A DNA stretch of 64,000 nt from assembly GCA_976551045.1 (NCBI GenBank), contig CDPCPM010000019.1, forward strand, positions 4,960,001-5,024,000. The letters run 5' to 3'. Positions 48,586 to 54,749 of this stretch are shown here, one piece after another. A model generated the notes under the pieces. That model saw only the letters and a list, made by a program, of their open reading frames with translations, was not told the origin of the DNA and ran no database searches. Source of the stretch: Glaucostegus cemiculus (lineage: Eukaryota). A program made the translations under genes and the position numbers. Position 1 is the first letter of the stretch. Each line of letters opens with the position of its first letter.

Positions 48586-49979
48586 AGAAAATAGAAAACA
48601 TGAAGCCAAATGACTGGACTTACAGATCAAGTGCCAGGCCCAAACTGGTGCAGGACCTGAGAGTAGTTTCCCCAGAAAATGCCGGGGAATCTCAGCAAAG
48701 TCATGTTCCACAGAGAGACCAATAGGAGAGCATATTTGATGCTCAACCAAAAGCCTTGGGAATTGCTAATTTGTGTAGAGGTCCTGAAACTTACCAATAC
48801 TTGACTTGAGAAATACCTATGCTCAAACTCAGCAAAATCTGGACATTTCATAGCTGGCATATATATACTTGGCTTCCAGTTTGCCAATTTACTATGCTCT
48901 TATCATTGATTTTTTTTTAGGAAAGAGAGAAATATCAACAAAATCTATCCAAGGATAACATATTCATCAAAATTTTAAGGATGTAGGTAAGTGCTTGGAT
49001 ATAGTAATGCACTAGAGCAAAATGTACAGATCATTCACTGACATGTAGTTATTTTAGCTAACCAAACAGTTTCACATATTTTATGAATATAAACCCACAG
49101 ATGTTTTTAATCACCACCTTTCTACCATTATACATCATACTTTATTGAAGATAATCGAAGAAGGAAGGAAGTCTAAGAACCTTTAAACGAGAGAAGCAAT
49201 CCATTCTTGAAGTGTGCACATCATATTGCTATGTCCTTGGCTGCGAGGAACACTCACTCAGTCATGCCAATACTGCAGGAAAATTGCTCTCTTGCCTACA
49301 GGCAAGAATGGTTTAAGTGAGTATGATTTTTCCTTTAGGCTGATTCTGCATAACCAACTTGACACCCCAAGGCATAACAATCTATGTAAAATACACACTG
49401 CTATTGAGAAACCTGCCAAGCAGGACACGGTGATCAGGACAGTGTTCTCTGATAGGACACAGACACTAACTGTTTACAGCACATTAGCTTTGAAAGACAA
49501 TCATAGCATAAATTTTTGGTTGAATGCATAAATAATGAGAACGATTCACAATGAAACATTACTCACTATTTAACACTTCAATGGGGCAGATTTCTACCCC
49601 AAGGCCAGTGCATATGCCGGGTATTTTTCTCTTTTTTTTTAAAGTGTAAGTGTAGAGTAAGATTTTTAACAAGGGTGTAAGATACTAGTGTTAGATAGTA
49701 TTTAGAAGTTATTTTTAGTAGGGTTATATAAGCTTTAAGGGGTCGAGTGAGGGCTGCACTGCGCAGGCGCCACGCGGGCAGCTTAAAAGGCAACCAGCTG
49801 CTAGAGCGGGCAGCGTCGGAGCGGGCAGCGGAGTGAGGGGGGAGCAGAGTGTTCGGGCTTTGGCTCAAGGGGCTTCGGCTTGAAGGGGCGAGGCAGGGGA
49901 GTTACTGGTAAGTAAAGGTAAGGCTTACCTGTTGAAGTTACATAGTTGGACAAACCAGGTTTAAGGGGAACTAGTTAAG

Positions 49980-50942
49980 ATGGAGGGCATGGTGCAGTGC
50001 TGCAGCTGCTTGATGTGGGAGGACGTGGACCCCGTTGAGGTTCACGTTGACCACTTCTGCAGTAAGCGTGTGAGGCTGGAGGAACTTCGGCTCAAAATTG
50101 ATGAGCTGGAGTCACGGCTTCAAACACTGCAGAGCATCAGGGAGGGAGAGAGTTATGTAGATGCGGCACATCAGGAGACAGTCACCCCACTTAGAGCAGA
50201 TACTTCAGGGGGCCAGGTAGTAGATAGCTGGGTGACTGTCAGGGGAGGGAAAGGGAAGGGGAAAACGAATAGGCAGACAGTGCAGAGAACCCCGGAGGCT
50301 GTTCCCCTCAATAACAGGTTTTCAACTTTGGAAACTGTGGAGGGGGACAGCCTGCAGGGACCAAGCACTAGTACCCAGGTCACTGGCACTAGGACCAGTA
50401 CTACTGCTCAGATGGGGAAGAAGGCAAAGAGAAATGCAGTGGTGATAGGGGACTCGATAGTCAGGGAAACAGATAGGAGATTCTGTGGAAGTGAACATGA
50501 ATCCCGGATGGTATGTTGCCTCCCAGGTGCCAGGGTCCAGGATATTACTGATCGGGCTCACAGGATTCTCGAGCGGGAGGGAGAGCAGCCAGAAGTCATG
50601 GTTCATGTTGGTACCAATGACATAGGTAGAAAGAGGGATGAGGTCCTGCAAAGGGAGTTTATGGAGCTAGGCAGAAAGCTGAAGACCAGGACCTCAAGGG
50701 TAGTAATCTCAGGATTACTACCGGTGCCACGTGATAGGAAAGGTAGGAACAGGGCGAGGTGGCAATTAAATACGTGGCTGAGAAAGTGGTGCAGGGTAGA
50801 AGGTTTTAGATTTTTGGATAACTGGGACCTCTTCTGGGGAAGGTGGGACCTGTACAGAGAGGACGGGTTACACCCCAACCAGAGGGGGGTAGATATCCTT
50901 GCAGCACGGTATGCTTGGTTGGTTCATGAGAGTTTAAACTAG
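49980..50942 (+). CDS. CR1 ORF1p: zinc-finger/leucine-zipper region plus SGNH esterase domain, uninterrupted 320 aa
   Basis: CCSCLMWE..FCSKR, heptad LEELRLKIDELESRLQTL, VIGDSIV, VHVGTND, DGLHPN. Confidence 0.92.
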   Translation: MEGMVQCCSCLMWEDVDPVEVHVDHFCSKRVRLEELRLKIDELESRLQTLQSIREGESYVDAAHQETVTPLRADTSGGQVVDSWVTVRGGKGKGKTNRQTVQRTPEAVPLNNRFSTLETVEGDSLQGPSTSTQVTGTRTSTTAQMGKKAKRNAVVIGDSIVRETDRRFCGSEHESRMVCCLPGARVQDITDRAHRILEREGEQPEVMVHVGTNDIGRKRDEVLQREFMELGRKLKTRTSRVVISGLLPVPRDRKGRNRARWQLNTWLRKWCRVEGFRFLDNWDLFWGRWDLYREDGLHPNQRGVDILAARYAWLVHESLN

Positions 50943-53900
50943 TTGGTGAGGGGGATGGGAACCAGGAGGGCAGGTCAGAGGATGTAGGGGTTACAGAAAA
51001 GGCAGATCTAACAGACAGAGTGGCTCTGGGGAAGGAGAAGCAGAGTACAGGCCATAATAGTAAAAAGGTGGATAAACTAATCAGGCAAGACGAAGGAAAC
51101 CAGCTTAGATTAAAGGAGGAGGTATGCGGGAACAAGTCGACGTGTAGTGAAGATGGTAAGAAGGACGGGCGGGTGGAAGGTAAGGATAATTTAGAGATCA
51201 ATAGAAGTTCATCAATATCTGTAGTTGATGCTGTTCTAAAAGTACTGTATTTTAATGCATGTAGCATTAGGAATAAGGTCGATGACCTAGTGGCACAGCT
51301 ACAAGCTAAAAAATATGATATCATGGCAATCACCGAATCATGGCTTACTGACGGATGTGATTGGGAACTGAACATCCAAGGGTATACAGTGTATAGGAAG
51401 GATAGGAGGGTAGGCAGAGGGGGTGGTGTAGCCCTGATGGTCAGTAATAATATAAAATCGATAGAAAGGAAGTACATAAGGGTGGAAGAAGTGGAATCCT
51501 TATGGGTGGAGCTAAGAAATAGCAAGGGTAAAAGGATGCTAATTGCAGTTATATGTAGACCCCCTAACAGCAGCCGGGAGGAGGACTATAGGATACAGTT
51601 AGAAATAGAAAAGGCATGTCAAAAGGGCAATGTGAAGATAATTATGGGGGACTTCAACCTGAAGGTAGATTGGGAAAATCAGCGAGGAGGTGGATCGCAG
51701 GAAACTGAGTTTGTAGAATGTCTACAGGATGGCTTTTTGGAGCAACTTGTAGATGAACCCACCAGGGGATCAGCCATTTTGGATTGGGTACTGTGCAATG
51801 AACCAGAGCTGATTAGGGAGTTAAAAGTAATGGAACCATTAGGAACCAGTGATCACAATATGATTGAGTTTGGAGTCAAATTTGAAAAGGAGAGGCTCAT
51901 AACTGGTGCACATATATGGCAATGGAACAAGGGAAACTACAGCAGTATGAGAGAGGAACTGTCTCAAACCGATTGGAAGAGTAAGATAGCAGGTGGGACG
52001 GTGGAGCAGAAATGGATAGAGTTTTTACAAGAAATAAGGAAGGTGCAGGATAGGTATGTTCCAAGAAAAAAGAAAGTTCTGAATGGAAAAAAGGCACATA
52101 TGTGGGTAACGAGAGAGGTTAAGGCTAAGATAAGAGCAAAAGGGAGGGCCTACAAGGTAGCAAAAATAAGTGGGGAAACTGAGGATTGGGAAACACTTAA
52201 AAACCTGCAGAAAGAAGCTAAGAAGGTCATTAGGAAAGAAAAGATGAATTACGAAAGGAAATTGGCAGATAACATTCAAACAGATACTGAAAGTTTTTTT
52301 TAAATATATGAGGTGTAAAAGAGAGACAAGGGTTGATATAGGACCAATTGAAAATGGTGTGGGAGAGATTATAATAGAAGATACAGAGATGGCAGAGGAA
52401 CTAAATAAGTATTTTGCATCGGTCTTCACTGTGGAAGATACCAGCAATATACCAGATAGACAGGGGTTCCAGGGGATTGAACTGAGTACAGTTGAGATTA
52501 CTAGGGAGAAGATGCTAAGGAAGCTAAGTGGATTAAAGACAGATAAGCCACCCGGACCGGATGAGGTGCACCCTCGGTTTCTGAAGGAGGTGGCTTTACA
52601 GATTGTAGAGGCATTAGTGATTATTTTCCAGGAGTCAATGGACTCCGGCATGGTTCCGGAGGACTGGAGAGTAGCGAACGTAGTTCCACTCTATAAGAAA
52701 GGTGGGAGGCAGCATAAAGGTAATTACAGACCAATTAGTTTGACGTCAGTAGTGGGAAAGATACTGGGATCGATCCTCAAGGATGAGGTTACAGAATACC
52801 TGGTGTTTCAAGACAGGATAGGTCCAAGCCAGCATGGTTTCGTAAAGGGAAGATCTTGCCTGACCAACCTATTGGAGTTTTTTGAGGAAATCTCAGGTAG
52901 GGTGGATAAGGGAGAGGCAGTAGACGTTGTGTATTTAGACTTTCAAAAGGCCTTCGACAAGGTGCCGCATCAGAGGTTGATTAATAAGATGAGTACGCAT
53001 GGAATTACAGGAAGGATATTAAAATGGGTCGAGCATTGGCTGGTAGGCAGAAAGCAACGGGTAGGAATAAAAGGATCCTGTTCTGGATGGCAACCGGTTA
53101 CTAGTGGTGTCCCGCAAGGGTCGGTGTTGGGCCCGCTACTTTTCACTTTATATATTAATGATTTGGATGATGGAGTAAATGGTTTTGTAGCTAAGTTTGC
53201 GGATGACACCAAGATTGGCGGTGGAGCAGGGAGTATAGAAGACGCAGGAAGGCTGCAGAGAGACTTGGATAGGTTAGGTGAATGGGCAAAGAAATGGCAG
53301 ATGAAATTCAATGTTGACAAATGTGCTGTAGTACACTTTGGCAAAAGAAATGACCGGGCAGATTATTATCTAGATGGGGAGAAAATTGGAAGTACGGAAG
53401 TACAAAAGGGACTTGGGGGTACTCGTGCAGGACACCCTAAGAGTCAACCACCAGGTCGGATCGGCGATAAAGAAAGCGAATGCTATGTTGGTGTTCATTT
53501 CGCGAGGTATAATGTATAGAAGTAGGGAGGTGATGATGAGGCTCTATGGAGCACTGGTACGTTCTCATTTGGAATACTGTGTGCAGTTTTGGGCCCCACA
53601 CCTTAGAAGGGATGTGCTGATGTTGGAGAGGGTTCAGAGGAGGTTTACAAGGATGATTCCTGGTATGAAAGGGCTTACCTATGATGAGCGTTTATCGGCT
53701 CTTGGACTGTACTCATTGGAGTACAGAAGAATGAGGGAGGACCTCATAAAAGTGTTTAAGATGTTGAAAGGAATGGATAGAGTAGATGTGGATAGGCTGT
53801 TTCCCTTGGTGGGTGAGTCCAAGACTAGAGGGCACAGACTTAGAATCAGAGGGAATCAGTTTAAAACAGAGATGAGGAGAAACTACTTTAGTCAGAGGGT

Positions 53901-54035
53901 GGTGGAATTGTGGAATTCTCTGCCACATACAGCTGTAGAGGCTCAGTCAGTGGGGGCATTTAAAGGGGAGTTGGATACGTACCTAATTAATCAAGGTATC
54001 AAGGGATATGGGGATAAGGCTGGAAATTGGAGATA
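50930..54035 (+). pseudogene. CR1 ORF2 (APE endonuclease + reverse transcriptase) with two +1 frameshifts
   Basis: LYFNA, ITESW, GDFN and SDHN endonuclease motifs; [27 protein letters not shown]. Frame breaks at the T8 run 52294-52301 and the A4 run 53404-53407. Confidence 0.93.
50933..50939 (+). promoter_or_regulatory. Putative -1 ribosomal frameshift slippery heptamer T TTA AAC
   Basis: ORF1 ends AGT TTA AAC TAG. The -1 frame TTT AAA CTA... is open and continuous with the endonuclease domain. Confidence 0.65.
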
Positions 54036-54749
54036 TGTTATCTTTTCTCTTCTCATGGAGCAGACTCGAAGGGCTGAATGGCCTACTTCTGCTCCCTTGT
54101 CTTGTGATCTTGTGACTTGCCTGTATTCCTCAGTGGTAGCCCCAAAGTTCAGCACTAATGCAGGCTTAAGCTGGTGATAGCATCTTAAGCCCTGTTACCA
54201 ATGCTGTTGGCTACCCTACACTGGGGAGCTCTGGTATGAAGTTCTTAGCTGTCAGCTATAAAATCTGCTTGTCAAGCCTACACCAAAGGAGTCTCTTTAA
54301 AATGAATGGGAGAAATAGATGGCCTGGAAGAAGGCTATTAGATGATTTTATGTTTTAACTCAGGTGGTTTAAATGGTTTAAGTTTTTAATTTGTGTGTGT
54401 TTGGTCATTTAGTCATTGCCACTAGCATTGGTCTTTTCAGTTTTTTTAAATGACTTTAATTTTTAACATTTTTAAAACAGATTTTCAACATTTGTGAACA
54501 TCCAAAACATTCGTAATAATTAAGTAACAGTGACAGCTTTGACAGCCAGTGAGTTTGGGGAAGAGGCCTCTTAGCTGCTCTGCGAATGCAACCAACTGCA
54601 TTGCAGTGCAGAGAACACCCAAGGTCAGGATTGAACCTCGGTCTCTTAAACTGTGAGGCAGTAACACAAACTGCTGCACCACTCTGTCACTCCACTTGCC
54701 ATCATCAACTCAATGGCCCAATGGCATCCTTCCCTGCCATAAGAAAAAT

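What the first reader, a model, noticed from the sequence alone, without database searches (positions are those of the whole stretch)
50927..50995. CR1 ORF1/ORF2 junction looks like a programmed -1 ribosomal frameshift cassette
Seen: ORF1 ends ...AGT TTA AAC TAG (50931-50942), placing T-TTA-AAC in exact X-XXY-YYZ phase just before the stop. The -1 frame opens at 50930 (after TGA 50927-50929), reads TTT AAA CTA GTT GGT... and runs without a stop into the APE domain. Its first ATG is at 51323, after the first endonuclease motif (LYFNA), so ATG initiation cannot give a complete ORF2p. Four G-runs follow (50950-54, 50957-59, 50968-70, 50987-90). Established: UUUAAAC is the coronavirus 1a/1b slippery site, G-quadruplexes can stimulate -1 frameshifting, and mammalian L1 ORF2 is made by termination/reinitiation instead. 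Inference: this LINE makes a gag-pol-like esterase-APE-RT fusion by -1 slippage. I cannot confirm whether this is already documented for CR1.
Basis: partly seen in the sequence, partly recalled or inferred. Interest (0 to 1): 0.85.

Follow-up and report, generated by a model that had tools for sequence, protein, structure and literature searches.

The report
CR1 LINE slippery frameshift junction
In a common animal jumping gene (CR1-type LINE), the first gene ends on a seven-letter "slippery" sequence kept from sharks to crocodiles, distant relatives swap it for other slippery sequences, and the second gene continues one base back, so the copying enzyme is likely made when ribosomes slip back one base.

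Summary
Observation confirmed. T-TTA-AAC-TAG ends ORF1 in phase, and ORF2 (APE-RT) runs in the -1 frame. The heptamer-stop is the majority sequence in 12 of 12 CR1 families of this genome (135 of 157 loci exact). Modal linker lengths of 113-296 nt keep the -1 offset, even across a recombination. Six families have no in-frame ATG before the endonuclease; where an ATG occurs, its position varies. Published consensuses from sharks, crocodilians, coelacanth and frog carry the same junction. Distant esterase LINEs switch to other classic heptamers: 31 of 61 ORF1 proteins end in LN, GN or KN, and metagenome DNA shows G-GGA-AAC or T-TTT-TTA with ORF2 at -1. This points to programmed -1 frameshifting (about 0.8), giving an esterase-APE-RT fusion of about 1,300 residues. 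It is inferred, not measured. The four-run G-quadruplex is not supported. Only a two-tract G motif 10 nt downstream is conserved, with no stem-loop or long-range partner. This copy's ORF2 is broken. No CR1 frameshift was found in the searchable papers, but the original CR1 papers were not available. This scan reported the same site before on other DNA (6 notes); my word search for the heptamer switching returned none.

The parts
49621..54119 (+). Full-length CR1-type LINE copy, about 97% identical to other copies; ORF2 broken by two frameshifts
   Evidence: blastn against other copies; 3' tail repeat; ORFs
49980..50942 (+). ORF1, 320 aa, Cys-rich N-terminus plus SGNH/GDSL esterase
   Evidence: Pfam PF13472 E 5e-15; PDB 4c1b ORF1 esterase E 1e-30
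50933..50939 (+). Slippery heptamer T_TTA_AAC in phase with ORF1 (last two codons Leu-Asn)
   Evidence: sequence; majority in 12 of 12 families
50940..50942 (+). ORF1 stop directly after the heptamer (TAG or TAA in 126 of 135 loci)
50950..50963 (+). Conserved two-tract G motif (G4-5, N1-2, G3-4) starting 10 nt after the heptamer; candidate stimulator, mechanism unknown
   Evidence: first G4+ run at +10 in 121 of 135 loci; column conservation; crocodilian and shark consensuses
50930..51235 (+). Open -1-frame linker (about 100 codons, no ATG) ahead of the APE domain; recombination breakpoint near 51156
51236..51895 (+). APE endonuclease domain of ORF2, -1 frame
   Evidence: Pfam PF03372 and PF14529
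52698..53366 (+). Reverse transcriptase domain (behind a frameshift in this copy)
   Evidence: Pfam PF00078 E 1e-34
54100..54119 (+). 3' tail of 8-bp repeats (TCTTGTGA x2.6), no poly(A)

Best explanation
ORF1 of these CR1-type LINEs ends on an in-phase slippery heptamer followed directly by a stop, ORF2 continues in the -1 frame, and a fraction of ribosomes likely slip back one base there to make an esterase-linker-endonuclease-reverse transcriptase fusion of about 1,300 residues. Shown: the layout, its conservation, and the swap among slippery heptamers in distant relatives. Inferred: tandem slippage of tRNA-Leu and tRNA-Asn from U_UUA_AAC to UUU_AAA, with predicted junction ...HESLN-LVGEGD... 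in this family, while most ribosomes stop at UAG and release ORF1p, setting a gag/gag-pol-like ratio. Most speculative step: the pause comes from the adjacent stop codon plus the conserved G motif at +10 (a protein-binding site or a weak or intermolecular G-structure), not from a stem-loop or pseudoknot.
For: (1) The heptamer-stop is the majority in 12 of 12 families, with loci assigned without using the heptamer; 135 of 157 loci are exact. Pairwise identity of the last 60 ORF1 codons is 43-98%, median 61%. (2) Nucleotide-level constraint: the last Leu is TTA in every family while three other invariant Leu use 3-5 codons, and the base before is T under four different amino acids. (3) Offset: 109 of 132 heptamer loci with an APE hit are -1. 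Lengths 113, 116, 122, 134, 140, 269, 284, 290, 293 and 296 (each in 2 or more copies) are all 2 mod 3. The frame survived a recombination inside the linker. (4) No in-frame ATG before APE in families A, C, F, G116a, I122a, I122b; where present it sits at codon 6, 19, 29 or elsewhere. (5) The same junction is in published consensuses of alligator, crocodile, bullfrog, coelacanth, bowfin, elephant shark, sharks and rays (PMC13343379 supplement). ORF1 proteins of swallow, lizard, turtle, frogs and coelacanth end in LN. (6) Heptamer switching: 31 of 61 dereplicated ORF1 esterases end in LN, GN or KN, against 0-3 of 61 at 11 other offsets. The residue before LN is NNY-only 11 times and NNR-only 0 times; before GN/KN it is 0 and 6 (Fisher p 8e-5, not phylogenetically independent). 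DNA confirms G_GGA_AAC (L206, L207, L209) and T_TTT_TTA (L210, L213). L206, L210 and L213 reach the APE and have it in the -1 frame (Pfam for L206 and L213). U_UUA_AAC, G_GGA_AAC and A_AAA_AAC are listed among the most shift-prone heptamers (PMC5009743 passage).
Against: No frameshift was measured and no RNA or peptide data were seen. No conserved 3' stem-loop (z between -0.18 and +2.1 in 12 of 13 representatives, one at -2.5), no canonical G-quadruplex (0 of 13) and no shared long-range partner were found, so slippage could be low. Five families have a linker ATG, and the large young family B has it 5 nt after the stop, a good reinitiation position. Two of the three distant -1 loci also have a Met before APE. 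23 of 132 loci are not -1; I read these as decay indels, checked only for family D (majority open at -1) and family H (one ambiguous base). L212 falls in the same APE clade but has a +1 offset and no heptamer. 30 of 61 ORF1 proteins do not end in LN/GN/KN. Synonymous sites among the families are not saturated (other codons are also invariant), and about half of the loci come from families A and B. One paper argues that LINE ORF1 needs to be a product separate from ORF2 (PMC3708506 passage).
Confidence: 0.8

Rival explanations
1. ORF2p is made separately by termination-reinitiation after the ORF1 stop, at a linker AUG where one exists and AUG-independently elsewhere, as for mammalian L1 and SART1.
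For: This is the route described for L1 and SART1 (PMC2881922, PMC11485995, PMC3708506 passages). Family B has an in-frame ATG 5 nt after the stop in 16 of 16 copies scored.
Against: No overlapping stop-start. ATG is absent in six families and at unrelated positions in the rest. UGGGA is absent from the last 180 nt of ORF1 in 3 of 12 families and scattered in the others. Reinitiation explains neither the fixed heptamer, nor an open frame back through the stop, nor the swap among slippery heptamers.
Confidence: 0.12
2. Both routes run: -1 slippage gives a fusion, and some families also reinitiate at a nearby AUG to give free ORF2p.
For: Family B keeps both the heptamer (38 of 39 loci) and the ATG.
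Against: The ATG coincides with the base before the G-tract and is absent from the sister family A, whose 5' part is 84% identical, so it may be incidental. Overlaps the best explanation.
Confidence: 0.15
3. The motif is a protein-level constraint (C-terminal Leu-Asn) or a DNA or splicing signal (internal promoter, splice acceptor) for a separate ORF2 transcript.
For: LN is invariant among vertebrate ORF1s. The same 10-mer occurs in the 5' UTR of two published spiny dogfish consensuses. Some families have an AG before the G-run.
Against: Codons are fixed beyond protein need. The AG is absent in families B and I. A DNA site would not be phase-locked to the stop or replaced by GGGAAAC or TTTTTTA. 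A separate transcript would still lack a start codon in six families.
Confidence: 0.05

Closest known systems
Coronavirus 1a/1b and retroviral gag-pol -1 frameshift signals (U_UUA_AAC, G_GGA_AAC, A_AAA_AAC; PMC5009743 passages)
   Same: In-phase X_XXY_YYZ heptamer, polymerase ORF in the -1 frame, structural protein first
   Different: No stem-loop or pseudoknot found 3'; the stop follows the heptamer directly; a G motif sits at +10; the host is a non-LTR element
Dictyostelium TRE5-A and TRE3-A (APE-type non-LTR elements)
   Same: A review states that both require a -1 frameshift for ORF2 (PMC5911963 figure legend)
   Different: Other clade and ORF1. I could not open the primary paper, so their slip site and the experimental basis were not seen
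Vertebrate esterase-type CR1 (ORF1 type IV; PMC4120745, PMC13343379 passages)
   Same: Esterase ORF1, APE-RT ORF2, short-repeat tail; same junction in published consensuses
   Different: Neither paper's main text holds the word frameshift; the junction is not described there as a recoding site
Mammalian L1 and silkworm SART1 ORF2 translation
   Same: Bicistronic LINE RNA whose ORF2 depends on ORF1 translation
   Different: Termination-reinitiation giving separate proteins; no fixed slippery heptamer
G-quadruplex-stimulated -1 frameshifting in reporter constructs (PMC3919603 passages)
   Same: G-tracts 3' of a slippery site
   Different: Needs four G3 tracts with short loops and a 6-8 nt spacer; here two tracts and 10 nt

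Membership tests
Canonical -1 PRF cassette (coronavirus/retrovirus type) | X_XXY_YYZ heptamer in phase with the upstream ORF | tested here: met
Canonical -1 PRF cassette (coronavirus/retrovirus type) | Downstream ORF in the -1 frame, open through the heptamer | tested here: met
   (L186, L187 intact)
Canonical -1 PRF cassette (coronavirus/retrovirus type) | Conservation beyond protein need | tested here: met
   synonymous sites not saturated
Canonical -1 PRF cassette (coronavirus/retrovirus type) | Stem-loop or pseudoknot 5-9 nt downstream | tested here: not met
   no conserved stable fold; pseudoknots were not modelled directly, but no stable first stem was found
Canonical -1 PRF cassette (coronavirus/retrovirus type) | Measured transframe product | not testable with these tools
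   needs a reporter, ribosome profiling or mass spectrometry
G-quadruplex-stimulated frameshift | Four G3 tracts with short loops, 6-8 nt after the slip site | tested here: not met
   0 of 13 canonical, 2 of 13 with loops up to 12 nt, spacer 10 nt
G-quadruplex-stimulated frameshift | High G-quadruplex propensity (two-tier or intermolecular forms) | tested here: inconclusive
   G4Hunter-type score 1.28-1.76, top 1-2% of the element, in 11 of 13; two-tier pattern in 8 of 13
Termination-reinitiation (SART1 / calicivirus type) | Overlapping or close conserved stop-start codons | tested here: not met
   only family B has a close ATG
Termination-reinitiation (SART1 / calicivirus type) | Conserved upstream UGGGA tether (motif recalled) | tested here: not met
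   absent in 3 of 12 families, variable position
Vertebrate esterase-type CR1 LINE | Esterase ORF1 | tested here: met
Vertebrate esterase-type CR1 LINE | APE plus RT in ORF2 | tested here: met
Vertebrate esterase-type CR1 LINE | Short-repeat 3' tail, no poly(A) | tested here: met
Vertebrate esterase-type CR1 LINE | RT groups with reference CR1 in a tree | not tested
   no named references in the tree; the label rests on architecture and on the junction match to consensuses named CR1

The most novel reading that the evidence does not exclude
Esterase-type CR1 LINEs, in vertebrates and in distant lineages of unnamed (probably invertebrate) hosts, express their reverse transcriptase as a gag-pol-like fusion by an ancient programmed -1 frameshift. 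The slip site has been exchanged among U_UUA_AAC, G_GGA_AAC, A_AAA_AAC and U_UUU_UUA. In vertebrates it is driven, without any RNA stem, by an adjacent stop codon plus a G-rich element at +10, a natural stimulator type not yet described.
Probability: 0.45. Interest if true: 0.88.

Novelty: new variant of a known kind. Interest (0 to 1): 0.76.

Why it matters
CR1 is the dominant retrotransposon group in most vertebrates (PMC13343379 abstract), and how LINEs translate ORF2 is an open question. If true, CR1 ORF2p is not a free protein but an esterase-APE-RT fusion, which would tie the membrane-binding esterase to the replication enzyme and change how CR1 ORF2 is annotated and how retrotransposition assays are built. 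It would give a high-copy natural -1 frameshift site in vertebrate genomes, with an unexplained stimulator. A 100-nt reporter tests it directly.

Tried and rejected
Downstream stem-loop: none in the window (z -0.05 to 0.74 for three downstream stretches) or across 13 representatives. Long-range partner of the G motif: best duplex sites lie at unrelated places in 14 copies, with no shuffle control. Splice acceptor before the G-run: AG not conserved. Upstream UGGGA tether: not conserved. In-frame ORF1-ORF2 fusions as an active fused subfamily: 13 loci picked for long frames mostly carry different length changes in the G-run before the heptamer, and L162 shares downstream defects with unfused L180. 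They look like single mutations or assembly errors and give no evidence either way. RNA: no RNA holder was listed, so no reads were laid. Viral contigs gave no relatives. Prokaryote genome contigs gave 5 loci with no usable junction. Of 42 metagenome loci most were too short, too distant or not LINEs; 9 had an APE hit (4 at -1 with a heptamer, one of them broken; 1 at -1 without; 1 at +1; the rest in frame) (recount: L206, L210, L213, L233, L220, L212, L234, L235, L236, L240 make 10). A target-site duplication was not evident by eye. No structure or complex prediction was run.
Full report
Observation. The window holds a full-length LINE copy at 49621-54119. ORF1 (49980-50942) is an SGNH esterase. 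It ends AGT TTA AAC TAG, and the -1 frame (50930-52303) runs through about 100 linker codons into an APE domain. The copy is dead: ORF2 is split over three frames. The ATG at 51323 is a minority allele; 21 of 30 family copies have their first Met 68-69 residues into the APE domain. The genome has 2.85 Gb, and the best named homologs are from rays and sharks, so the host is probably a cartilaginous fish (inference).

Conservation in this genome. Six searches gave 160 loci (best-scoring matches only, so a biased sample). I dropped 2 duplicates and 1 locus without an anchor. The ORF1 end was projected without its last four residues, and loci were assigned to 12 families without using the heptamer. 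TTTAAAC plus TAG or TAA is the majority in 12 of 12 families and exact in 135 of 157 loci (69 of the 157 are families A and B). In the old family H only 3 of 10 are exact, with scattered substitutions. Of 132 heptamer loci with an APE hit, 109 are in the -1 frame, 12 in frame 0 and 11 in +1. Of 14 linker lengths seen in two or more copies, 10 are 2 mod 3. Three of the others (112, 121, 123) are one base off a modal length, and the fourth (154) belongs to family D, whose majority read is open at -1. The chance rate of an in-phase heptamer is 5 in 2,296 codons. The last Leu is TTA throughout, while three other invariant Leu use 3-5 codons, and the base before it is T under Ser, Cys, Gly and Ala (built from heptamer-bearing copies; confirmed without that filter). 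Synonymous sites are not saturated, so this test is moderate. The window's family is a recombinant with the breakpoint in the linker, and the -1 offset was kept. L186 and L187 are intact copies (ORF2 1,033 codons).

Start codons. Among -1 copies no ATG precedes the APE in families A (22 of 24), C (2 of 2), F (2 of 2), G116a (9 of 10), I122a (5 of 5) and I122b (5 of 6). Families B, E and G116b have one at codons 6, 29 and 19; D and H have scattered ones; K is mixed. Family B's ATG lies 5 nt after the stop and keeps reinitiation open there.

Other vertebrates. 48 of 75 homologs that reach the C-terminus end in Leu-Asn. Named ones include swallow, lizard, turtle, two frogs, coelacanth and elephant shark. 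The consensus table in the supplement of PMC13343379 gave 20 hits for the two 10-mers. By my reading 17 are ORF1/ORF2 junctions (alligator, crocodile, bullfrog, coelacanth, bowfin, elephant shark, sharks, rays, one element named Crack) and 3 are not. That search is conditioned on the motif and sees only the first 400 letters of each cell, so it gives no misses. Several crocodilian and shark entries show the G motif at exactly +10; others show it shifted or not at all.

Heptamer switching. A profile search reached distant esterase ORF1s. Of 293 proteins, 170 have the catalytic motif 20-45 residues from the end, and 61 remain after dereplication at 60%. 31 of these 61 end in LN (22), GN (8) or KN (1), against 0-3 at 11 other offsets. 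The residue before LN is NNY-only 11 times and NNR-only never; before GN or KN it is NNR-only 6 times and NNY-only never (Fisher p 8e-5; rows are related, so this is not a count of independent events). This is what T_TTA_AAC and G_GGA_AAC require. One metagenome scan gave 42 loci. L206, L207 and L209 have G_GGA_AAC at or one codon before the stop, and L210 and L213 have T_TTT_TTA. L206, L210 and L213 reach the APE, in the -1 frame, open for over 800 codons (RT confirmed by Pfam for L206 and L213). L206 and L210 have a Met before the APE; L213 does not. Of the 10 loci with an APE hit, 4 are in frame (three of them near-identical), 1 is +1, 1 is -1 without a heptamer and 1 is -1 but broken. In an APE tree of 16 rows, 11 of 12 rows in the clade with the window carry a heptamer (L096 with one substitution); L212 is the exception. 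The hosts of these contigs are unnamed.

Stimulator. No stable conserved fold lies downstream, and the G motif has no shared long-range partner. A G-run of four or more starts 10 nt after the heptamer in 121 of 135 loci, followed by a second tract; the third positions of both Gly codons stay G. The stretch is in the top 1-2% of the element by a G4Hunter-type score in 11 of 13 representatives, but 0 of 13 have a canonical four-tract motif. In reporters the best spacer was 6-8 nt and long loops lowered frameshifting (PMC3919603 passages). The motif is real; its mechanism is open. A bound protein, as in protein-stimulated viral frameshifts with longer spacers (recalled; PRRSV is named in PMC5009743), is my preferred guess.

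Mechanism. Most ribosomes end at the stop and give ORF1p. A fraction likely slips one base on the heptamer and gives an esterase-linker-APE-RT fusion of about 1,300 residues; L161 shows such a frame. The layout and conservation are shown; slippage, its rate and the stimulator are inferred. Confidence 0.8. Rivals: reinitiation alone 0.12, a protein, DNA or splicing constraint 0.05; both routes together 0.15, overlapping the main reading.

Literature. Searches (listings seen) found no paper on a CR1 frameshift. Passages read: PMC5009743 (no occurrence of CR1 in the first 300,000 characters; natural G-quadruplex use stated as unknown in 2016; HeT-A needs a frameshift), PMC5911963 (TRE5-A and TRE3-A require -1), PMC5405496 (Paramecium LINEs: +1 or readthrough suggested), PMC2881922, PMC11485995 and PMC3708506 (reinitiation, 2A), PMC13343379, PMC4120745, PMC3905857 and PMC2734521 (the word frameshift absent from the main text). 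Three id look-ups for primary papers failed. The original chicken and turtle CR1 papers (recalled) and Repbase reports were not seen and may have noted the overlap. Only 400 letters per cell of the one supplement opened were visible.

Earlier notes of this scan. Six notes report the same site in other genomes. They gave me the TRE5-A lead and a pointer to a consensus library, and are not counted as support. A word search for the heptamer switching returned nothing.

Verdict. A real, deeply conserved recoding-type signal. It works like a gag-pol -1 site but fails the structural-stimulator test for the canonical class, so I file it as a new variant of a known kind. Interest 0.76.

Noticed in passing
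window 49621-51156 versus 51237-54102: The window's family is a recombinant. The 5' part is 84% identical to family B (L186), but its APE is 47% identical to B and 60% to family G116 and groups away from B in the tree; the breakpoint lies in the linker.
   Followed up: yes
L161:973-4863 (-): A copy with one extra G before the heptamer reads as a single 1,296-aa esterase-APE-RT frame, the shape of the predicted fusion. May be a mutation or an assembly error.
   Followed up: partly
P0038, P0123, P0140, P0190: Database proteins that run from ORF1 through FKL into the linker or APE, i.e. the -1 reading of the junction, in other species.
   Followed up: partly
L234-L236, L240: Distant LINE-like loci with ORF1 and the APE in the same frame, separated by one TGA or TAG: candidates for stop readthrough.
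   Followed up: no
L212, L220: Relatives with a +1 offset, or a -1 offset without a heptamer.
   Followed up: partly
P0220, P0229, P0258, P0272, P0278, P0290, P0152: A group of ORF1 proteins has Lys-Asn at a similar position about 10 residues before the end, compatible with an internal A_AAA_AAC site; DNA not seen.
   Followed up: no
PMC13343379 supplement, SquAca_CR1-3 and SquAca_CR1-18: The heptamer-stop 10-mer also occurs in the 5' UTR of two consensuses.
   Followed up: no
window about 50909-50932: Third codon positions in the last 10 codons of ORF1 are also rather conserved across families; a 5' contribution to the signal is possible.
   Followed up: partly
P0007, P0140: Shark-like CR1 ORF1 proteins are labelled as Pseudomonas and Proteus proteins in databases, probably contamination.
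   Followed up: no
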